64,000 nt of DNA from a virus. A model generated the notes under the pieces. It was given only the letters and a program-made list of their open reading frames with translations. It was not told the origin of the DNA and searched no databases. A program made the translations under genes and the position numbers. Numbering within the stretch: the stretch's first letter is position 1; the number at the start of each line of letters is the position of its first letter. The stretch is from IMG/VR virus record IMGVR_UViG_3300010218_000011, one strand, 5' to 3'. Shown piece after piece: positions 2,335-60,188 of the stretch.

Positions 2335-3507
2335 TCAGTTGATGGTGATTGTGCCAGCGACGAGTGCCCCGTTGGCGCCTGCGGGAAGATCAGCCGTCCC
2401 GCCATTGAGCGTCATCGTGTTCGCGACCGTGGCGACGCCCGGAACGCCCCAGATGATCTGGAATATTTGCGTCCATTCGAGCGTACCGCCGAGCGGAATT
2501 GAGGCGATGAAATTGTCGAGCGCGGTTTGTACTGCTGCCTCGACATTCGCCAGCGTGTAGCCCGACGCTGCGGTGATCGTTGCGGTGATATTCGCCGTGA
2601 CTTGCGTTGCCGCGAACACATCGAACGTGATCGAAAGACCCCGAATCGCATCGATCGCCGAATAGACGGCGGTCTTGAGCGTGTTCGTATAGGGCGAGAT
2701 GACGACGTAGAAATAGCCTGGCTGGCTGGCTCCGGCGAGCGTTTGGTTTTCGACGATCTCGTACTGAATGCCCTGCTGCACACCTGCGATCGCCGATTCT
2801 ACGGCCGCCTTGATCGCCGCGCGCAAGCCAGAGACGTAAGTCTGAAAGCGCGCCTGTACCGCCGAATCACTTTCCTGATTCACGCCGTTCGTGAACGCAC
2901 TTGCGTTTGTGACGGTATCGACGTATTGAATCGCGGTGGAAATGGTCGTGATTGTGCCCGCAGCGACATTACTCTGAATGCCGGCGTTCTGCGCCTGTAC
3001 CGTTACCTGCGCACTCGCGACGCCTGCGGGAATCACGTAGGCATTCGTCGCGGCATTCCAATACGTTTGCGTCGAATCGGGGATGACCTGAAACTGTTGC
3101 GTACCGTCAGCCGTGAGCAGCATCACGCCGCCCGAATACGATCCGCCTACACCACTCGAATTCGCGGTGTACGTCCCAGCCAGAATCGTTGCTTGCGCAG
3201 TTGCGGTAAAGCGTGAGAATGTGACTTGCCCAGTTGACGCGACAGCCGCCTCACGAGGCGGGCATCCGAAATCGGCAATGAACGTGTCGATGTCATTGCC
3301 CGTCGAGGTAGACAGGCGCGTCACGCTCAACAGTTGCATCACGAGCGACTGGAGCCACATCGCGACCGCCGCGACCGCCTCCACACGGGCCAACTCGAGC
3401 GAACCCACGACGAAGCGCAAAACGCCGCCCAGCGCAGTCACCGCCGACTGAATCGCCGCGACCTGTTGCTCGACGATGCGCGTGAAGCTTTGGGTGTTAA
3501 GAGCCAT
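2335..3507 (-). CDS. Baseplate J-like protein (Mu gp47 / P2 gpJ-like)
   Basis: 390 aa; position between the gp25/W-like and gp48-like genes. Confidence 0.7.
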   Translation of the reverse strand: MALNTQSFTRIVEQQVAAIQSAVTALGGVLRFVVGSLELARVEAVAAVAMWLQSLVMQLLSVTRLSTSTGNDIDTFIADFGCPPREAAVASTGQVTFSRFTATAQATILAGTYTANSSGVGGSYSGGVMLLTADGTQQFQVIPDSTQTYWNAATNAYVIPAGVASAQVTVQAQNAGIQSNVAAGTITTISTAIQYVDTVTNASAFTNGVNQESDSAVQARFQTYVSGLRAAIKAAVESAIAGVQQGIQYEIVENQTLAGASQPGYFYVVISPYTNTLKTAVYSAIDAIRGLSITFDVFAATQVTANITATITAASGYTLANVEAAVQTALDNFIASIPLGGTLEWTQIFQIIWGVPGVATVANTMTLNGGTADLPAGANGALVAGTITIN

Positions 3508-4509: not shown

Positions 4510-5624
4510 CCGAGCACCACCGTCTGGGCCTGTGTTGCCGTCTTGCCGTGTACCGTGGTGTCGAAGCGCGGCGGATCGATCGAGCAGCGCCGCATAACGC
4601 GCGCGGCCTGATACGTCGTGTCGTATGGGGTGCCGGTGCCGCGAACCTCAATCGGCGTCCAGGGGTAGATGATCGCGTCACCGGAGAGGCGCGCTTCCAT
4701 CTTGTATTCGTGTTTGCTGATCTGGTCGAGCAACTGTTGCGCCTTGGCGTCGCATTGAGCCTGTGTTAGCCCAACGAACGTGTAGTCGTACTCTTGGACG
4801 CTTTGAGCCAGTGAGGCGTTGCGCTCGATGCGCTTGGCTGTCTTGCTGGCCTTTGCGACAGACGTGTACACGGCGTTTTTCATGCCGTGATAGCTGCGCA
4901 CGCGCACGGAGACGTCATTCGCCAGCGTCAGGTCGTGCTCGAACTCAAGATCAACTGCGTTCGATCGCGGGTAAGGTCGGTCAGTCGTCGGCGGCTCGTA
5001 TTGGATCAGGTATGGCTCATTCGATAGAGCGCTAGAAAACTTCCCGAAATGCAGCTTGCGCCCCAATACAAAGCATTGATACCCCTCGCGCTGGGCGAGG
5101 TACGTCAAGATCGACCAAATGGTTTGCTGATGGTGCAGATTGACGTGATCGAGCGTGAAGAAGTGCCCGACGAGATCCTTGGTCTCCTGAACGTCAGCGG
5201 TCAATCCAACAAGTCCAACGAGGTAGGTCGCTACCTGGCTTGCTGTCTGGTTTTGGAACTTCAGATCGACCTTTTTATCGGTCAAGAGTCCCGTCAAATC
5301 GCGCCCAGAGAGCGTGATCCCCTGCGTCATGGCATTCAAGCGCACCGAATCGATGCGATAGGTCTGCAACAGCGTCAGATCGCGCGCCGAATAATTGCGC
5401 GGGTCTTTGGGAAACCCGACATAGACGTCAATCAAGATTTCCGTCTGCTGCGTCCACCATGCCCAATCTGCGGCCTTTGCGGGGATTTCGACTCGAAGCG
5501 TGCCCGCCTCGTAGATTCCGTTGTGCCCCGAAAACCAATCGCACCAGTCAATCACTTTCGAGCCGACCATGAGAATCGACCGCGGCGCGGCGAGCGTGCC
5601 GGCAGTCGGGAGCGTATTCAGCAT
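4506..5624 (-). CDS. Baseplate hub protein, gpD / Mu gp44-like
   Basis: 372 aa between the DNA-circulation-like gene and the spike gene; overlapping stop/start with neighbours. Confidence 0.65.
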   Translation of the reverse strand: MLNTLPTAGTLAAPRSILMVGSKVIDWCDWFSGHNGIYEAGTLRVEIPAKAADWAWWTQQTEILIDVYVGFPKDPRNYSARDLTLLQTYRIDSVRLNAMTQGITLSGRDLTGLLTDKKVDLKFQNQTASQVATYLVGLVGLTADVQETKDLVGHFFTLDHVNLHHQQTIWSILTYLAQREGYQCFVLGRKLHFGKFSSALSNEPYLIQYEPPTTDRPYPRSNAVDLEFEHDLTLANDVSVRVRSYHGMKNAVYTSVAKASKTAKRIERNASLAQSVQEYDYTFVGLTQAQCDAKAQQLLDQISKHEYKMEARLSGDAIIYPWTPIEVRGTGTPYDTTYQAARVMRRCSIDPPRFDTTVHGKTATQAQTVVLG

Positions 5625-38151: not shown

Positions 38152-38976
38152 ATGGCTACCACCAAAGACATACGAGACATACGAAAGCAGGAGTCGGATC
38201 GACGCCGGGCGCGACTATCAGAGTTGATCGACGCCTACTTCGATGGCGTCCAGCGGAATTTTGTCGACCGCATCAAGATCAACCAGGGCGAGCTTTCGGG
38301 GCTACTTAAGGACAAGTCGTTCGGGGGACTCAAGGCAAGATCGATAGAGGAGAAGGCGCACCTCATTAGCGGCAGCCTGGACGAGCCTATCGGCTCCCCG
38401 TTCTACGCCGACGCCTACCACAATTCGATTACGTCCGATGTGTCGAATAGAGGAGATGCCAAACGTTTAACCGAGGCAGGAAAAGAGGCATTTAGGGGTA
38501 ATCTTTTCCCTACAGAAGATCTACCTCAACCCTCGGAAGAAGAGTTCGCACTCGTGCCTCAGCTCGACATAGCAGCGGCCTGCGGCCACGGCCGGTTTGA
38601 CGATCACGTCGTCATAAAGGGTGGCCTCGCATTCAAGAAATCGTTTTTGAAGGAATACGGGGTGCCGGAACACGCGGCGCGCATCATCTACGCGTCCGGC
38701 GGCAGCATGCACCCGCGGATTCAAGACGGCCGAGTCGTGCTTATCAATACAGCGGAGAGGAGCCCAACTGACGGGCGAATTTTTGCGGTTTGCCTGCCTG
38801 ACGGCGGCCTGGTTCTTAAGCGCTTGGTGCAGGACTACCATCCGCTCGCCAACGGGATCGTTTGGATTCTCCGTAGCGATAACCCTGATAAGACGCAGTT
38901 CCCTGACAAGATTCTTCCGCCGGATGATCGGACCATGATCGTCGGCCGCGCCGTCTGGACCGATAGCATCCTCTAG
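38152..38976 (+). CDS. CI-like repressor with S24 (LexA-type) autopeptidase domain
   Basis: 274 aa; C-terminal ..GGSMHPRIQDGRVVLIN....GGLVLKRL.. (Ser/Lys dyad context); divergent from cro. Confidence 0.8.
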   Translation: MATTKDIRDIRKQESDRRRARLSELIDAYFDGVQRNFVDRIKINQGELSGLLKDKSFGGLKARSIEEKAHLISGSLDEPIGSPFYADAYHNSITSDVSNRGDAKRLTEAGKEAFRGNLFPTEDLPQPSEEEFALVPQLDIAAACGHGRFDDHVVIKGGLAFKKSFLKEYGVPEHAARIIYASGGSMHPRIQDGRVVLINTAERSPTDGRIFAVCLPDGGLVLKRLVQDYHPLANGIVWILRSDNPDKTQFPDKILPPDDRTMIVGRAVWTDSIL

Positions 38977-38999
38977 AGCCCCAAGAGCCGCGCCAACCA

Positions 39000-39025
39000 A
39001 GCCCGCCGAGCGCGGGCTTTTCTTC
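39000..39025 (+). terminator. Intrinsic terminator after the cI-like gene
   Basis: AGCCCGC-CGAGC-GCGGGCT followed by TTTTCTT. Confidence 0.7.
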
Positions 39026-39036
39026 GTGCAAAAAAA

Positions 39037-39050
39037 TTACCAAACGGTAT
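39037..39050. promoter_or_regulatory. Operator-like TTACCAAACGGTAT
   Basis: Same TTAC-N6-GTAA family (one mismatch), abutting the -35 of the PL-like promoter. Confidence 0.45.
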
Positions 39051-39077
39051 TGACAACGCTTTACCATGTAGTAATAT
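39050..39077 (+). promoter_or_regulatory. PL-like early promoter
   Basis: TTGACA - 16 nt - TAATAT. Confidence 0.65.
39061..39074. promoter_or_regulatory. Operator TTACCATGTAGTAA
   Basis: TTAC-N6-GTAA in the promoter spacer; the same core (TTACCATNTAGTAATATG) as at the PR-like promoter. Confidence 0.55.
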
Positions 39078-39113: not shown

Positions 39114-39431
39114 ATGAGCCAAGCACTTGACCACGGGATTCTGAATGTACCCCTGGCGAAGCGCGGGAACATCGATTCTCATATCGACGCCTACAAGCGC
39201 GAGCAAGCGAAGGTAGCGAACGCCGCTCGCAAGGTGGCTGCGGTTCAGCACAAGTCGGACAAGGCAATCGCCAAAGACCGTCTCGCGCTGATCCTCGCGC
39301 GCCCCGAGTTGCTGGCAGCAAAAGCCGAAGCGATGAACGTCGCCTTGAAAGACTTGCGCGAGCATCTTCGCAGCTGGTCGATTTGGGAGCCGAAGAAATT
39401 GATGGCGCTGGCCGATAAGTGGCTCGCCTAA
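39114..39431 (+). CDS. Hypothetical first gene of the PL-like operon
   Basis: 105 aa, GGAGA Shine-Dalgarno; no Arg-rich N-like motif seen. Confidence 0.5.
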   Translation: MSQALDHGILNVPLAKRGNIDSHIDAYKREQAKVANAARKVAAVQHKSDKAIAKDRLALILARPELLAAKAEAMNVALKDLREHLRSWSIWEPKKLMALADKWLA

Positions 39432-39448
39432 CCACCCAGGAGCACCAA

Positions 39449-39574
39449 ATGTCCCAAGCCGCATCCGACCTAATCCAGTCCCGCACAGATAGGCAAGTCA
39501 CGCAGATAGAGCGCCGCAGGATGGCGGCGGCTTTGATTTCCGAGGGTGTTCGCGATGAGCGCGGCGGCTGCTAA
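39449..39574 (+). CDS. Hypothetical 41-aa protein
   Basis: MSQAASDLIQSRTDRQVTQIERRRMAAALISEG..; AGGAG 6 nt upstream. Confidence 0.4.
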   Translation: MSQAASDLIQSRTDRQVTQIERRRMAAALISEGVRDERGGC

Positions 39575-39616
39575 ACATCGAAACCGCCGCAGCTCACCGC
39601 GGTGACAAGGGGAATC

Positions 39617-39739
39617 ATGCTGATCCTATTCCTGCTGCCGCTGATCGTTGTGTGCGTACTTCGACATTGGCAGCTTAACCAGGGCACGCCCAGCGCGCAA
39701 CGAGCGCCAAGCCGGCTGGCAAAGATGGATTACGGCTAA
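39617..39739 (+). CDS. 40-aa membrane micro-protein
   Basis: MLILFLLPLIVVCVLRHWQLNQG..; AAGGGGA upstream. Confidence 0.35.
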   Translation: MLILFLLPLIVVCVLRHWQLNQGTPSAQRAPSRLAKMDYG

Positions 39740-40571
39740 CTGGTGCGGCATCTCGATACGCACGTTGGGATGCCGCCGAAACCGAACCCATACCCAAGTG
39801 CTGGGCGTCCCGAATGTCGCCCAGCACCGAACAAAGGTTGTTCGTAGCAGCAAGCCCGCCGATAGGTTTGCTAGTGCGAATAGCACAGCAGCAGAGGAAC
39901 ACAGGCGCATGGCGCGTCCTGGTAGGGCAAGCTCTTTAACAACGTGGTGATGAGTGTTAGTCAGTGCTGGCCGCCTAGGTGGTCATGGGACGTAACGCAG
40001 AAAGGGTAGACCCCCTTCGGCCTGAGCGACCAGCCCTGACGACATTCAACACCACACCAGAAGGCATACCAGTAATGGCGGGGCCAACGCGCTACCCCGG
40101 AGAAGATCAGCGCCTATCAGTGATCCGCCTGGCCGCCAGAGTGGCTATAGAACGGATTGCTGATTGAGTAACAACCCGAACCCAAGCCGGAGCCGATAAA
40201 AAGGGTGTAGCCGGATGGGTTTGAGGAAGCAGTACTCAGGCGTAGCGATTGGCTAGGGAAGGTTGGGCCTTCCTCGGTTGACATTCGGTGGACCCCGCTG
40301 CCGAGCGTTTTCCGATCCCGGTTCGAATCCGGGCGGTCAGTCGCTACACCTGAGTGCTTGCATTAAATCCCTAAGCGCCCGGTAGATAGGGCGGCGCAAC
40401 GCAAAGGTCCACGTCCCTTGCGAAGCGCGGCTATGACGTGGCGCCGGTGTGATAGCGATACGCGCTGACAGGCTGGAAAGTACGGTCCACCCGGCGCCAA
40501 TGATGAGCGCGTCCCGGTACGAGGGTAAGCCGGACCTATTCAATCGACCGTCAAGCATTAAGGAGTCCTAA
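39740..40571 (+). ncRNA. About 830 nt untranslated, hairpin-rich segment of the PL-like transcript (function unknown)
   Basis: The only >60-aa plus-strand ORFs use rare A/T-ending codons (ATA, AGA, AGG, CTA, GTA). Contains rrn-type boxA, 10-bp hairpin GTGCTGGGCG/CGCCCAGCAC, T-arm-like CCCGG-TTCGAAT-CCGGG (40317..40333), and GGTGTAGC (40204..11) complementary to GCTACACC (40343..50). Confidence 0.4.
39931..39942 (+). promoter_or_regulatory. rrn-type boxA (NusB/NusE antitermination element)
   Basis: GCTCTTTAACAA matches 12 of 13 positions of the rrn boxA consensus TGCTCTTTAACAA, on the transcribed strand about 0.85 kb downstream of the PL-like promoter. Confidence 0.55.
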
Positions 40572-40757
40572 ATGAAAATCAGTCTCGATTTGATCCAAGA
40601 CGCCGACAATGCAGCGCCGGTCGAGGTGCTCTTTGAGGGCGTCAAAACGGACAAAGGTAATGCTTTGTTAGTCAAGCTCAGTGAGCCGCGCGACGAATTC
40701 TTGATCCATCGCGCCGAGCTTGCATGGGTCACTTCTCAAGCATGGAGGTCGGAATGA
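40572..40757 (+). CDS. Hypothetical 61-aa protein
   Basis: AAGGAG Shine-Dalgarno; ATGA overlap with the next ORF. Confidence 0.5.
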   Translation: MKISLDLIQDADNAAPVEVLFEGVKTDKGNALLVKLSEPRDEFLIHRAELAWVTSQAWRSE

Positions 40758-55189: not shown

Positions 55190-55390
55190 ATGTTCCTGAC
55201 CGAGGAAGAACTGACGGAACTGACCGGCAAGCGCCAAAACGCGGCGCGAGTGCGCGCGCTCAATAGCATGGGTGTGCAGCACAAGATCCGGCCGGACGGA
55301 TCGGTTGCCGTATTGCGATCGCACGTCGAGCGGCTGTTTGGGGAAAGGACGGCCAAGCCTAAAATGGAATGGCAGCCAGCCTGGATGTGA
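55190..55390 (+). CDS. xis: Excisionase-like protein (DUF4224-like)
   Basis: 66 aa from MFLTEEELTELTGKRQ..., directly upstream of int. Confidence 0.55.
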   Translation: MFLTEEELTELTGKRQNAARVRALNSMGVQHKIRPDGSVAVLRSHVERLFGERTAKPKMEWQPAWM

Positions 55391-55391
55391 T

Positions 55392-56450
55392 ATGCCGCGC
55401 CCAAGAAAAAAGGAAAACGTAGGGCTTCCGACTCGGTGGAAACTGCACCACGGGGCCTACTACTATCTCGTGCCCGTGGGGCTCGAGGCGGCATGGGACG
55501 GGAAGAAGAAATTCCGGCTCGGCGCGACGCTGCCAGAAGCGTACAAAGTATGGGGCGAGCGGGTGGGGCGTCTGGATAAGATCCGAAACGTCAGCCAATT
55601 GCTGGATCAGTACGCGCTCGAGGTGATTCCGACCAAGGCGCCCACGACGCGCGCACAGAACATCTCAGCATTGAAGCCGCTCAGGGAATTGCTCGGCGCC
55701 GCGCCGCTCGACTCGCTCAAGCCAACAATCATCTACGCGTACGTGAGGCAGCGCGGGATGGTCAAGACCGGCGCCAAGCGAGAGGTCGAGGTGTTGTCGC
55801 ACGCGCTCACGAAGGCCGTTGAATGGGGCTATATCGACCGACACCCGTTCGCGTGGCAGCTACGGTTCGAGGGCGAAGCCCCGCGAACCCGCTATGTCGA
55901 GGACTGGGAAATCGATGAGTGCCTCAGCATCGAGTCGAAACGCAAGAAGGGGAGCGTCCGGGCGGCGCAGGCATACATCCGCCTCAAGTTGCTAACGGGG
56001 ATGGCGCGCGGAGATCTGCTGCGCCTGCGCCCTGGGATCGACTTCAAGGACGACGGCATCCACATCCAGCGGCATAAGACGGCCAAGAAAACCGGCAAGC
56101 GAACCATCTACGAATGGACTGATGAACTGCGCGCCGCGGTGGCAGCCGCGCTCGCGGCGCGGCCGGTCGACATCTCGCCCTGGCTCTTCTGCAACATGCG
56201 AGGGGAGTGCTACATCAACGAGGAAACCGGCCGGGCCGGCGGGTGGGAATCGCTATGGTCGAATTTCATGGAACGCGTGATGACCGAAACGAAAGTGACG
56301 GAGCCGTTCCACGAGCACGACATACGAGCGAAAGCGGCCAGCGACGCGGAATCGCTCGAGCATGCCCAGGCGCTTCTATCGCACGCCGACAGCCGCACAA
56401 CGCGTCGCATTTATCGCCGGAAGCCGGAGAAGGTGAAGCCGACTAGGTAG
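55392..56450 (+). CDS. int: Tyrosine integrase
   Basis: 352 aa; ..ARGDLLRLR.., ..HDIRAKAASD.., ..LLSHADSRTTRRIY.. (R..HxxR..Y catalytic pattern). Confidence 0.9.
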   Translation: MPRPRKKENVGLPTRWKLHHGAYYYLVPVGLEAAWDGKKKFRLGATLPEAYKVWGERVGRLDKIRNVSQLLDQYALEVIPTKAPTTRAQNISALKPLRELLGAAPLDSLKPTIIYAYVRQRGMVKTGAKREVEVLSHALTKAVEWGYIDRHPFAWQLRFEGEAPRTRYVEDWEIDECLSIESKRKKGSVRAAQAYIRLKLLTGMARGDLLRLRPGIDFKDDGIHIQRHKTAKKTGKRTIYEWTDELRAAVAAALAARPVDISPWLFCNMRGECYINEETGRAGGWESLWSNFMERVMTETKVTEPFHEHDIRAKAASDAESLEHAQALLSHADSRTTRRIYRRKPEKVKPTR

Positions 56451-56468: not shown

Positions 56469-56595
56469 AGGACGGTCACTCGTAAACAAATCAAGCGCTT
56501 ACGGTGGGCAATAGGTAAATTGTATAACCCGTGCTAGACTACTCATCGGCTTATCTGGCGAGGCAGAGCGACCGAAGCATGTAAGTTTTAACAGC

Positions 56596-56628
56596 CTATC
56601 GGGGGTTCGAATCCCCCTCTCTCCGCCA
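56596..56628 (+). other. tRNA-Ser-like 3' fragment (att core candidate)
   Basis: ..CTATC-GGGGG-TTCGAAT-CCCCC-TCTCTCC-G-CCA: T arm, 3' acceptor strand and CCA. No matching GGAGAGA 5' acceptor strand or D arm within 100 nt upstream. Confidence 0.7.
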
Positions 56629-56637
56629 GCATCGCAT

Positions 56638-56668
56638 AAGGCTCTCCACGGAGGGCCTTTTTCATTTT
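56638..56668 (+). terminator. Intrinsic terminator right after the tRNA-like fragment
   Basis: AAGGCTCTC-CACG-GAGGGCCTT followed by TTTCATTTT. Confidence 0.65.
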
Positions 56669-60099: not shown

Positions 60100-60188
60100 G
60101 GGAACTCCTGCGGAACCCTGGGTATGAGGGACCGCGGCAACGCGCCCGGGAAGCGCGCTTTCGGCTGGCCTGCCTAGCCGCGGTCTTT

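What the first reader, a model, noticed from the sequence alone, without database searches (positions are those of the whole stretch)
39740..40571. About 0.8 kb untranslated, hairpin-rich segment with a perfect rrn-type boxA inside the PL-like early operon
The PL-like promoter (39050..39077) is followed by three short ORFs. After them comes about 830 nt with no credible coding frame. The two >60-aa ORFs there (39648..39950 and 39979..40167) use ATA, AGA, AGG, CTA and GTA codons, unlike every neighbouring gene.

The segment contains GCTCTTTAACAA (39931..39942), which matches the NusB/NusE-binding rrn boxA consensus TGCTCTTTAACAA. Such elements protect long untranslated transcripts from Rho, so this supports the region being transcribed as RNA rather than being junk.

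Structural features seen:
- a 10-bp perfect hairpin GTGCTGGGCG/CGCCCAGCAC (about 39799..39828);
- GCGGCATC/GATGCCGC (about 39746..39775);
- a tRNA T-arm-like CCCGG-TTCGAAT-CCGGG (40317..40333);
- an 8-nt long-range complement, GGTGTAGC (40204..40211) with GCTACACC (40343..40350), for which GTAGCGA (40242..40248) is an alternative partner;
- a repeated CTGGCCGCC-AG-GTGG motif (about 39970 and about 40129).

No intrinsic terminator lies inside. Possibilities include a large phage ncRNA, a long regulatory leader for the ACP-containing gene set, or an RNA decoy.
Basis: partly seen in the sequence, partly recalled or inferred. Interest (0 to 1): 0.65.

Follow-up and report, generated by a model that had tools for sequence, protein, structure and literature searches.

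The report
Large boxA-led structured phage RNA
The untranslated stretch is real: it encodes a large, many-domain structured RNA headed by a ribosomal-type boxA signal, it belongs to a previously undescribed RNA family found in the early operon of about twenty related temperate phages, and what it does is still unknown.

Summary
Window 39740-40571 has no coding signal, folds far better than shuffled sequence on the + strand (z -6.8), and holds the only rrn-type boxA in 64 kb.

It matches no Rfam family and nothing in GenBank phages or PLSDB plasmids. It is nonetheless a member of an RNA family I recovered at about 20 distinct prophage or viral loci.

All members share this order: (boxB-like hairpin) - boxA - long helix or helices with variable caps - a 66-nt "S" domain - a 23-bp "X" helix with a variable cap - optional 3' domains.
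- S domain: 14 of 18 base pairs show compensatory changes, and controls are low.
- X, A, W and Z domains are also supported by compensatory changes.
- In the closest relative (L122), 108 predicted pairs are kept and none is broken.

The tRNA T-arm is the tip of a cloverleaf that caps helix X. tRNA-like caps recur in four relatives at two positions.

In relatives the RNA is either the 5' leader of the early-left operon or is preceded by a type II hammerhead. The window keeps only 25 nt of that hammerhead.

Function is inferred, not shown. I favour a Nus/boxA-dependent anti-Rho leader with a phage-specific RNA core (about 0.4). The main rival is a trans-acting RNA resembling GOLLD or ROOL (about 0.3).

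The parts
39050..39077 (+). Early-left (PL-like) promoter TTGACA-16-TAATAT. It lies downstream of the S24 repressor gene (38152-38976) and that gene's terminator (38999-39019).
   Evidence: Consensus scans. Repressor identified by PHROG 4 and Pfam PF00717.
39578..39602 (+). Remnant of a type II hammerhead: the stem II 3' strand, GAAAC and the stem III hairpin. It is 100% identical over 25 nt to relatives that carry the complete ribozyme. In the window the sequence then diverges, so there is no GUC cleavage site, no stem I and no CUGANGA.
   Evidence: No hammerhead hit in the window at E<=10.
39617..39739 (+). Small 40-aa hydrophobic ORF, probably real and part of a window/L012-specific insert. 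It is not part of the RNA.
   Evidence: GC by codon position is 0.66/0.40/0.70. 74% nucleotide identity and a weak tblastn match to L012.
39745..39827 (+). Two strong local hairpins, 39745-39757/39764-39776 and 39798-39809/39816-39827. They are poorly conserved. Only the base of the first is shared with L012.
39836..39930 (+). Conserved pre-boxA segment. It holds a covarying hairpin (about 39849-39874), the GUGCGAAUAGCAC hairpin (39873-39885), GAGGAACAC, and a small boxB-like hairpin GGCGC-AUG-GCGC (39904-39915).
   Evidence: blastn matches to L065, L002 and L012. Same order of elements in L122, L049, L053, L009 and L063.
39931..39942 (+). rrn-type boxA, GCUCUUUAACAA.
   Evidence: Unique in the window, chance expectation 0.11. 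Conserved in all relatives 120-390 nt upstream of the S domain.
39944..40055 (+). Domain A. A helix of about 24 bp (39944-39968 with 40032-40055) starts 1 nt after boxA and carries a variable cap (39969-40031). L062 has a tRNA-like cap at this position.
   Evidence: Duplex energy -31.3 kcal/mol against -21.7 for shuffles. The same helix with different sequences occurs in L012, L013, L062, L056, L057 and L010. Folds.
40056..40167 (+). Domain W: hairpins that include CCUGGCCGCCAGAGUGGCUAUAGAAC (the GGCUAYNGRAC motif).
   Evidence: 74% identity to L001. In the window/L001/L056 RNAalifold run, which spans W and S (window 40040-40236), 17 of 49 pairs are compensated.
40168..40233 (+). Domain S, the family signature. 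Helices P1 (40176-40183/40217-40224), P2 (CCGG 40187-40190/40211-40214) and P3 (40193-40194/40203-40204) surround an invariant asymmetric internal loop, AG/GUGUAG (40191-40192/40205-40210).
   Evidence: Covariance model R1 scores 66.7 bits here, and this is the only hit in the prophage. 14 of 18 pairs have compensatory changes. Covariation score 0.55, against 0.16 for shuffles and 0.04-0.09 for slid controls.
40229..40361 (+). Domain X. A helix of about 23 bp (40229-40251 with 40338-40361) is capped by a tRNA-like cloverleaf (40252-40337). The cap has an 8-bp D-position hairpin, a long anticodon-position arm and a canonical T arm (40317-40333).
   Evidence: Fold z -6.96. X helix duplex energy -38.9 kcal/mol against -23.3 for shuffles, with covariation at most positions across 15 loci. 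ARAGORN calls an aberrant 94-nt tRNA-Val, but there is no Rfam tRNA hit. L122 keeps the cloverleaf with a different anticodon-position arm.
40366..40540 (+). Domain Z. It has a multi-stem element (about 40374-40452), a helix CGCGCU/AGCGCG flanked by CUGA and AAUGAUGA (about 40463-40516), and a terminal hairpin (about 40518-40538).
   Evidence: 79% identity to the Paraburkholderia tropica prophage L010 and to L122. 11 of 47 pairs are compensated across 3 sequences.
40561..40757 (+). AAGGAG ribosome-binding site and the next early gene (61 aa, ATG at 40572). Translation resumes here.

Best explanation
What it is (high confidence, about 0.9). The segment from about 39836 to 40540, + strand, is one member of a family of large (0.35-1.1 kb), modular, highly base-paired RNAs. 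The family is co-transcribed from the early-left (PL-type) promoter of temperate phages whose only named hosts are Burkholderiaceae.

The window's domains, in order:
- a boxB-like hairpin;
- an rrn-type boxA;
- long helix A with a variable cap;
- domain W;
- the invariant S domain;
- long helix X capped by a tRNA-like cloverleaf;
- domain Z.
After Z comes the ribosome-binding site of the next gene.

How it most likely works (inferred, about 0.4).
1. As the RNA emerges, boxA recruits host NusB-NusE(S10), and with them the rrn-type Nus complex.
2. This makes RNA polymerase resistant to Rho across the roughly 0.7 kb of untranslated RNA. The protection extends onward through the 17-kb operon (Gam-like, RecT, exonuclease, ... 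integrase).
3. The conserved S-X core is the phage-specific partner of boxA. It would play the role that boxB-N plays at lambda nut sites, or that put RNA plays in HK022, either stabilising the modified polymerase or binding a factor.
4. The 23-25-bp helices are plausible RNase III sites.
5. The interchangeable caps and 3' domains (tRNA-like, Z and others) are passenger RNA modules. They exploit the Rho-protected zone, much as tRNAs ride in rrn spacers.

Shown: the noncoding status, the structures, the order of elements, and the position in the operon.
Inferred: Nus binding, Rho protection, the role of S-X, and RNase III processing.
For: Noncoding and structured:
-.
- boxA is unique in the window. 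It is present in every relative, always 120-390 nt 5' of S.

Family and covariation:
- S domain: 20 strong CM hits. Three loci were found only through an unrelated 5' motif.
- S domain: 14 of 18 pairs are compensated, and controls are low.
- Helices X and A keep 22-25 bp with unrelated sequences in 15 and 7 loci.
- W. Z.
- Window against L122: 108 pairs, none broken.

Strand:
- G.U pairs make up 12% of X-helix pairs.
- Fold z -6.8 on +, -4.1 on -.

Position:
- The RNA always lies just downstream of the immunity repressor and early promoter.
- In L055 and L099 the RNA is the 5' leader itself. boxA sits about 42-46 nt after the predicted start, as at rrn P2 and lambda nutL.
- The window operon has one promoter. 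There is no strong + strand terminator until 56638, beyond the integrase gene.
- No N-like protein, or any other protein family, is shared by all loci.

Precedent: boxA recruits NusB/E to build Rho-resistant complexes (review PMC12360218).
Against: - Only one boxA and one S domain exist in the prophage. There is no counterpart in the rightward (cro-side) operon, whereas lambda and HK022 have sites in both operons.
- A cis antiterminator does not need 0.7 kb of conserved structure, tRNA-like modules, or a hammerhead that cuts it free in relatives. Those features point to a discrete stable RNA.
- No strong intrinsic terminators are predicted downstream that would need suppressing. boxA may therefore serve only the RNA itself.
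- boxA can also promote Rho termination in some contexts.
- There are no expression, processing or binding data.
- The S-domain alignment used for counting was fitted to the model.
Confidence: 0.4

Rival explanations
1. It is a trans-acting large ornate RNA in the manner of GOLLD or ROOL. The RNA is excised from the operon transcript, by the hammerhead in relatives and perhaps by RNase III at helices A and X. It accumulates as a stable particle or scaffold and acts on a host target. boxA is there only so that the untranslated gene gets transcribed. The tRNA-like caps would be functional parts, for example decoys for tRNA-targeting defence nucleases or ligands for tRNA-binding enzymes.
For: - The RNA is large, with a conserved core and swappable peripheral domains.
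- tRNA-like caps recur at two different positions: the window, L122, L049 and L117 on helix X, and L062 on helix A.
- A type II hammerhead sits immediately 5' of the RNA in L009, L017, L018, L049, L053 and L117, with covarying stems.
- GOLLD and ROOL are phage or prophage RNAs found near tRNAs, and GOLLD sometimes embeds tRNAs (PMC12286853).
- No obvious downstream terminators need suppression.
Against: - The RNA sits strictly next to the early promoter, and is leader-like in L055 and L099. That is not expected for a free-standing RNA gene.
- No 3' end signal (terminator or ribozyme) was found.
- The window has lost the hammerhead.
- There is no match to the GOLLD or ROOL models.
- Only 5 of about 20 members have tRNA-like caps.
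Confidence: 0.3
2. It is a regulatory 5'/intercistronic leader that tunes expression of the downstream early genes. It would sense a signal or bind a phage or host protein, acting as a riboswitch-like or attenuator element. Here boxA-Nus would act as in suhB, promoting rather than preventing Rho termination.
For: - Leader position in L055 and L099.
- boxA-dependent stimulation of Rho termination is known.
- In a local fold, boxA can pair with 39837-39851, a possible sequestering helix.
- A mini-ORF with a ribosome-binding site (GAGGAA-N9-AUG at 39909) runs across boxA in the window and in L049.
Against: - The genes downstream of the RNA differ between loci, so no specific regulated gene set is conserved.
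- boxA lies 640 nt from the next ribosome-binding site, unlike in suhB.
- The sequestering helix and the mini-ORF are not conserved across the family.
- No ligand-pocket-like conserved junction was identified.
Confidence: 0.12
3. It is a decayed pseudogene, intergenic junk or a DNA-level element (origin, recombination linker or repeats) with no RNA function.
For: - The region is a mosaic with sharp module boundaries, such as the 25-nt identical block at 39578-39602.
- Gene callers placed spurious - strand genes over it in relatives.
Against: - There are compensatory base changes in five domains.
- G.U pairs and the stronger fold z are specific to the + strand.
- No protein homology or codon periodicity.
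- The order of elements is conserved at about 20 loci.
Confidence: 0.03

Closest known systems
rrn operon leader/spacer antitermination region (boxB-boxA-boxC; NusB/NusE/NusA/NusG/SuhB/S4 complex)
   Same: - boxA is a perfect 12/12 match to the core of the consensus.
- The boxB-like hairpin lies upstream of boxA, which is the rrn order rather than the lambda order.
- boxA is followed at once by one strand of a long helix that encloses structured RNA, like the RNase III stems around 16S and 23S.
- The transcript is long and untranslated.
- tRNA-like units are embedded in it.
   Different: It is phage-encoded, sits inside an mRNA operon, and contains no rRNA. The S, W and Z domains have no rrn counterpart that I could test. 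Nus binding is untested.
Lambda nutL/nutR with N protein, and HK022 putL/putR RNA
   Same: It occupies the same slot in the genome: just downstream of the early-left promoter, next to the repressor gene, at the head of a long operon that ends with int. Like nut it has a boxA. Like put it may work without a dedicated protein.
   Different: - There is no 15-nt boxB hairpin next to boxA.
- No N-like gene is conserved.
- The prophage carries one copy only.
- The element is 5-15 times larger than nut or put.
- It contains tRNA-like and other accessory domains.
GOLLD (RF01998) and ROOL (RF03087) large ornate phage/prophage RNAs
   Same: - Several hundred nucleotides in many domains.
- A conserved part plus variable parts.
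- Carried by prophages.
- Associated with tRNAs, and in GOLLD sometimes embedding them.
- Function unknown.
   Different: - No similarity to either covariance model.
- Proteobacterial (Burkholderiaceae-type) hosts.
- Fixed promoter-proximal place in the early operon.
- Carries a boxA.
- Built from long, simple helices rather than pseudoknot-rich folds, as far as predicted.
boxA-led CRISPR arrays and other Nus-factor targets
   Same: A boxA is placed upstream of a long untranslated RNA so that Rho does not cut transcription short (my recollection of Stringer et al. 2020; general principle).
   Different: There are no repeats or spacers. The RNA is a unique structured molecule.
Type II hammerhead ribozymes in prophages (RF02276)
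   Same: Relatives carry a full catalytic core (CUGACGA, GAAA, GUC or GUA) with covarying stems I and II at the 5' edge of the RNA. Prophage hammerheads are known to flank gene blocks (PMC3088659).
   Different: The window keeps only the first 25 nt, so it has no ribozyme. The relatives score below Rfam's threshold (23.2 against 37 bits).

Membership tests
rrn-type boxA (NusB/NusE site) | Sequence matches the boxA consensus (U)GCUCUUUAACAA on the transcribed strand | tested here: met
   12/12 at 39931-39942 on the + strand. It is unique in the window, with chance expectation 0.11 at <=1 mismatch. It is conserved as G(C/U/A)UCUUUAACAA in 18 relatives.
rrn-type boxA (NusB/NusE site) | Lies downstream of a promoter and upstream of a long untranslated transcript | tested here: met
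   The promoter is at 39050-39077. About 640 nt of noncoding RNA follow boxA. In L055 and L099 boxA is about 42-46 nt from the predicted start.
rrn-type boxA (NusB/NusE site) | Binds NusB-NusE and confers resistance to Rho | not testable with these tools
   This needs gel shift, nusB or nusE mutants, or bicyclomycin.
Lambda-type nut site | boxA followed within about 10 nt by a 15-nt boxB hairpin with a GNRA-like pentaloop | tested here: not met
   boxA is followed after 1 nt by the 24-bp helix A. The only small hairpin lies upstream, at 39904-39915.
Lambda-type nut site | An N-family protein is encoded next to it, and a second site exists in the rightward operon | tested here: not met
   No antiterminator hit for neighbouring ORFs. 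No protein is shared by all loci. There is a single boxA and a single S domain in the prophage.
GOLLD / ROOL | Match to the family covariance model | tested here: not met
   No hit at the gathering score over the window, nor at E<=10 over 39400-40700.
GOLLD / ROOL | Large multi-domain RNA in a prophage, supported by covariation, with tRNAs nearby or embedded | tested here: met
   for structure. for tRNA-like inserts.
tRNA | Scores as tRNA with the Rfam model, with a canonical D arm, a 7-nt anticodon loop and a free acceptor end | tested here: not met
   - No RF00005 hit even at E<=10.
- ARAGORN gives an aberrant 94-nt call.
- The D position is an 8-bp hairpin with a 3-nt loop.
- The anticodon-position arm is long, and L122 has an unrelated sequence in its place.
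- The acceptor continues into a 23-bp helix.
- The equivalent cap in L049 does pass the threshold (44.4 bits).
tRNA | Canonical T arm (5 bp plus UUCGAAU loop) in a four-way junction | tested here: met
   40317-40333. The T-stems covary: CCCGG/CCGGG in the window, GCUGG/CCAGC in L049 and L117, and ACAGG/CCUGU in L062.
Hammerhead ribozyme type II | Complete core (CUGANGA, GAAA, NUH cleavage site) with stems I-III | tested here: not met
   - Window: only 39578-39602 remain (GAAAC plus the stem III hairpin). There is no hammerhead hit at E<=10.
- Relatives: the core is complete, stems I and II covary, and the Rfam score is 23.2 bits against the threshold of 37.
Protein-coding gene or pseudogene | Codon periodicity, an open frame, and homologous proteins | tested here: not met

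The most novel reading that the evidence does not exclude
This is a new class of large phage RNA that by itself, with only host Nus factors, reprograms RNA polymerase for a whole early operon. It would be a giant RNA-only counterpart of lambda N/nut built as an rrn-leader mimic. Its helix tips would serve as docking bays for exchangeable functional RNA modules, including tRNA mimics that act on host tRNA-directed defence or processing enzymes. Alternatively, it forms a GOLLD/ROOL-like RNA assembly, the first such RNA known in proteobacterial phages.
Probability: 0.25. Interest if true: 0.85.

Novelty: new variant of a known kind. Interest (0 to 1): 0.72.

Why it matters
Few large structured bacterial or phage RNAs are known (GOLLD, ROOL, OLE, HEARO, raiA). 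Their functions are mostly unsolved.

This family has unusually informative anatomy:
- a recognisable host-factor signal (boxA);
- a fixed place at the head of the early operon;
- a small invariant core (S-X);
- exchangeable modules, including tRNA mimics;
- in relatives, a self-cleaving ribozyme at its 5' edge.

These features make its function directly testable with boxA, nusB and Rho experiments and with cis/trans reporter tests in a culturable host genus (Paraburkholderia).

If it is an RNA-based antitermination device, it would show that phages copy the rRNA-operon solution to the Rho problem. If it acts in trans, it extends ornate phage RNAs to proteobacteria.

It also matters for annotation. 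Gene callers put spurious - strand genes of 79-260 aa over these regions.

Tried and rejected
- Rfam, at gathering score over the whole window and at E<=10 over 39400-40700. Only chance-level hits appeared (MIR1144, CRISPR-DR29, sR28).
- blastn of the region, of the S-X core and of a relative's whole RNA against 50,697 GenBank phages, and of the region against PLSDB plasmids. No match.
- Downstream 61-aa protein as bait in viral contigs. Nothing found.
- Exact T-arm pattern in viral contigs. Nothing found.
- First W-motif pattern. It returned only the contig already known.
- The 105-aa upstream protein in genome contigs. This gave 29 loci in many genera (Comamonas, Stenotrophomonas, Morganella, Xenorhabdus and others), but none has the S domain. 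That protein is therefore not the RNA's partner.
- Metagenome scan with the S pattern. 56 hits, of which only 5 are real, judged by complementarity of P1 and P2. The rest are coding-sequence chance matches.
- Search for a protein family common to all S-bearing loci. None found.
- First Z pattern in viral contigs. Nothing found.
- Ideas considered from sequence and dropped:
  - a K-turn or sarcin-ricin reading of the S internal loop (it does not fit either consensus);
  - resemblance of GGGUGUAGCC/GGAAGCAG to 4.5S RNA or to the L11-binding region of 23S (short motifs recalled from memory and not tested);
  - a functional tRNA-Val;
  - a retron ncRNA, since no reverse transcriptase gene is called next to the RNA at any locus.
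- Pseudogene reading. Rejected.
Full report
**1.

Promoter and upstream genes
- Window 39050-39077 carries the only sigma-70-type promoter match on the + strand between 39000 and 58000.
- It sits just after an S24/LexA-type repressor gene (38152-38976) and that gene's terminator.
- Three short ORFs follow the promoter.
  - The first (39114-39431) has 71 database homologues.
  - The third (39617-39739) shows the GC pattern by codon position typical of real genes here: 0.66/0.40/0.70.

No coding frame in 39740-40571
- There are 10-16 stop codons per frame.
- GC by codon position is flat: spread 0.07, against 0.25-0.51 in neighbouring genes.
- No internal ORF on either strand has a Pfam or PHROG hit.
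- ORF62 has no tblastn match in related loci. ORF100 matches only across a stretch conserved at the nucleotide level.
- The rare-codon claim is a trend: 8-11% in the two ORFs against 0-5% in neighbours, with one small neighbour at 9.5%.

boxA and folding
- GCTCTTTAACAA at 39931-39942 is the only match in 64 kb even with one mismatch allowed (chance expectation 0.11).
- The segment folds much better than shuffled sequence. The effect is stronger on the + strand (z -6.78) than on the - strand (z -4.10).
- No + strand terminator lies inside the segment.

**2. It is not a known RNA**

- Rfam 15 gives nothing, either at gathering score or at E<=10 over 39400-40700. This includes GOLLD, ROOL, tRNA and hammerhead.
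- blastn finds nothing in 50,697 GenBank phages or in PLSDB plasmids.
- Full-text searches found no description of such an element.

**3. It belongs to a family**

How the relatives were found
- Contigs encoding homologues of the upstream 105-aa protein all show a gap of 0.35-1.2 kb at the same place. Either no gene is called there or only unsupported - strand calls.
- blastn between these gaps shows a colinear mosaic of shared blocks.
- Two of the conserved blocks were turned into DNA patterns. Scanning viral and metagenome contigs with them gave further members.
- Chance hits were removed by requiring complementarity of the flanking helices.
- About 20 distinct loci now carry the signature. 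One of them is a Paraburkholderia tropica genome (L010).
- The 105-aa protein itself occurs in many other genera without the RNA. No protein family is common to all RNA-bearing loci. The RNA therefore looks like an autonomous module.

**4. Anatomy and support** (window coordinates)

a) Pre-boxA segment, 39836-39930
- It holds two hairpins and a small boxB-like hairpin, GGCGC-AUG-GCGC.
- Relatives have GCGC-loop-GCGC at the same place.

b) boxA, 39931-39942
- Every relative has a boxA, always 120-390 nt 5' of the S domain.

c) Helix A
- It starts 1 nt after boxA: 39944-39968 pairs with 40032-40055.
- Its duplex energy is -31 kcal/mol, against -22 for shuffled strands.
- The same helix exists with different sequences in six other loci.

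d) Domain W, 40056-40167
- In the three-sequence RNAalifold run, which spans W and S (window 40040-40236), 17 of 49 predicted pairs are compensated.

e) Domain S, 40168-40233
- Three stacked helices surround an invariant AG/GUGUAG internal loop.
- A covariance model built on 16 sequences finds 20 strong hits. Three loci among them had been collected only through an unrelated 5' motif.
- 89% of cells are paired, and 14 of 18 pairs have changes on both sides.
- The covariation score is 0.55, against 0.16 for shuffles (0 of 500 reach it) and 0.04-0.09 for slid partners.
- Caveat: the alignment used for these counts was fitted to the model.
- S occurs once in the prophage.

f) Helix X
- 40229-40251 pairs with 40338-40361, about 23 bp.
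- Its duplex energy is -39 kcal/mol, against -23 for shuffled strands.
- It is present in 15 loci. The distal halves have unrelated sequences, and most positions show several pair types.

g) Cap of helix X in the window, 40252-40337
- It is a four-way junction: an 8-bp hairpin, a long arm, and a canonical T arm at 40317-40333 (fold z -6.96).

h) Domain Z, 40366-40540
- It is 79% identical to L010 and to L122. 11 of 47 pairs are compensated across the three sequences.

Closest relative
- L122 aligns with window 40172-40536 at 78.6% identity.
- Of 108 predicted pairs, 8 are doubly compensated, about 14 change on one side only, and none is broken.

Strand
- G.U pairs make up 12% of X-helix pairs, which is consistent with the + strand being the functional one.

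**5.

- GGTGTAGC (40204-40211) is not the partner of GCTACACC (40343-40350).
  - GGUGUAG is the invariant S loop.
  - GCUACACC pairs with GGCGUAGC (40238-40245) in helix X. L122 carries a compensating A-U to G-C change there.
- The two perfect hairpins at 39745-39827 are real. They lie in a poorly conserved insert shared only in part with L012.
- The second CTGGCCGCC motif is the covarying W hairpin.

**6. tRNA-likeness**

- ARAGORN calls an aberrant 94-nt "tRNA-Val". The Rfam tRNA model does not match.
- L122 keeps the T arm and the first hairpin but has an unrelated sequence in the anticodon-position arm. There is therefore no conserved anticodon.
- tRNA-like caps with the same GGUUCGAAUCC loop and covarying T stems also cap helix X in L049 and L117, and helix A in L062.
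- The L049 cap passes Rfam's tRNA threshold at 44.4 bits.
- These are tRNA mimics used as interchangeable helix caps. They are not tRNA genes.

**7. Context**

- The window's + strand operon runs from 39078 to a strong terminator at 56638.
- It contains a protein with a Gam-like C-terminus, RecT, an exonuclease, a PAPS-reductase-like gene and an integrase. This is a lambda PL-type operon.
- In L055 and L099 the RNA is the 5' leader itself. The order is promoter, boxB-like hairpin, boxA about 42-46 nt from the predicted start..., S, X, first gene.
- Where genes precede the RNA, six relatives carry a type II hammerhead candidate immediately 5' of it.
  - The catalytic core is complete: CUGACGA, GAAA, and GUC or GUA.
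  - Stem I has five different covarying versions, and stem II has two.
  - The Rfam score is 23.2 bits, below the threshold of 37.
  - Prophage hammerheads that flank gene blocks are known.
- The window keeps only the first 25 nt of this element (39578-39602). The small ORF and the two hairpins sit where the rest of the ribozyme would be.

**8. Mechanism**

Shown: a conserved, strand-specific, multi-domain RNA headed by boxA, at the head of the early-left operon.

Established knowledge: boxA recruits NusB-NusE, which nucleates complexes that make RNA polymerase resistant to Rho.

My preferred reading (about 0.4)
- boxA makes transcription of this untranslated stretch, and of the operon beyond it, Rho-resistant.
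- The invariant S-X core is the phage-specific partner, filling the slot that N/boxB fills in lambda or that put fills in HK022.
- The variable caps and 3' domains are passenger RNAs in a protected zone.
- Evidence for:
  - strict promoter-proximal placement;
  - leader status in two lineages;
  - a universal boxA;
  - one promoter for 17 kb;
  - no conserved antiterminator protein.
- Evidence against:
  - one copy per prophage;
  - no strong downstream terminators;
  - size and complexity far beyond what antitermination needs;
  - a ribozyme that frees the 5' end in relatives.

Main rival (about 0.3): a discrete trans-acting RNA like GOLLD or ROOL. These are prophage-borne, lie near tRNAs or embed them, and have no known function. 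In this reading boxA is merely a licence to transcribe.

Lesser rivals
- A regulatory leader (about 0.12). A possible boxA-sequestering helix and a mini-ORF across boxA exist, but neither is conserved across the family.
- Junk or a pseudogene (about 0.03), which the covariation contradicts.

**9. Novelty and score**

- The parts are familiar: boxA, T-arm mimicry, long processing-type helices, a hammerhead.
- The kind of object is also known: a large ornate phage RNA, or a Nus-dependent untranslated transcription unit.
- The family, its S-X core and this combination are absent from Rfam 15 and from the literature I could search.
- I rate it a new variant of a known kind, with interest 0.72.

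Noticed in passing
window 39578-39602; L018 1060-1130; L009 about 4545-4612; L017 about 1602-1667; L049 about 3319-3384; L053 (- strand); L117 about 368-425: Relatives carry a candidate type II hammerhead ribozyme at the 5' edge of the RNA. The core is complete and stems I and II covary, but the Rfam score is 23.2 bits against a threshold of 37. The window, L050 and L052 keep only the first ~25-30 nt, followed by a ribosome-binding site and a small ORF, as if recombination had cut through the ribozyme.
   Followed up: partly
L055 9848-10030 (+); L056 3687-3877 (-): RT-15 RNA (RF03018), a motif associated with reverse transcriptases, is present at 162-168 bits in two contigs that also carry the boxA-S RNA. 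In L055 it lies about 8.7 kb downstream of the RNA; in L056 it lies about 2 kb downstream, on the same strand.
   Followed up: no
window 56590-56659: A tRNA or tmRNA 3' fragment (GGGGGTTCGAATCCCCC-TCTCTCCGCCA) is followed by a strong terminator. It sits just after the integrase gene (55272-56450). This is probably the prophage attachment site and right end. ARAGORN calls no intact tRNA there.
   Followed up: partly
window 39909-39950: A mini-ORF (MARPGRASSLTTW) with a good ribosome-binding site (GAGGAA-N9-AUG) reads across boxA. L049 has a similar RBS-AUGGCG start, and in L009 the ORF stops at the boxA edge. Translation could compete with NusB/E binding. It is not conserved in the other boxA subtypes.
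   Followed up: partly
window 40463-40516: Domain Z contains CUGA and AAUGAUGA on either side of a 6-bp helix, CGCGCU/AGCGCG. This looks like a box C/D or kink-turn arrangement, and Rfam gave a chance-level sR28 hit here at E 0.29. These nucleotides are invariant in the window, L122 and L010.
   Followed up: no
window 39114-39431: The first gene of the early-left operon encodes a 105-aa protein with a very conserved N-terminus (LDHGILNVPLAKRGNIDAQIDAYK). It matches no Pfam family. Homologues occur in phages of many proteobacterial genera, and its function is unknown.
   Followed up: partly
window 60116-60184 (-): An int-alpA RNA (RF02996) scores 47.3 bits, outside the prophage early operon. 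This suggests a second integrative element nearby.
   Followed up: no
L010 4439-5221 (-); L018 1094-1639 (-); L013 4481-4762 (-); L009 4541-4780 (-): Public gene calls place - strand genes of 79-260 aa, without Pfam hits, directly over the structured RNA in relatives. They are probably annotation artefacts.
   Followed up: partly
window 39512-39529: A terminator-like hairpin plus T-rich tail (CGCCGCAGGATGGCGGCG GCTTTGATTT) lies inside the 41-aa ORF, upstream of boxA. It could be an early attenuation point.
   Followed up: no
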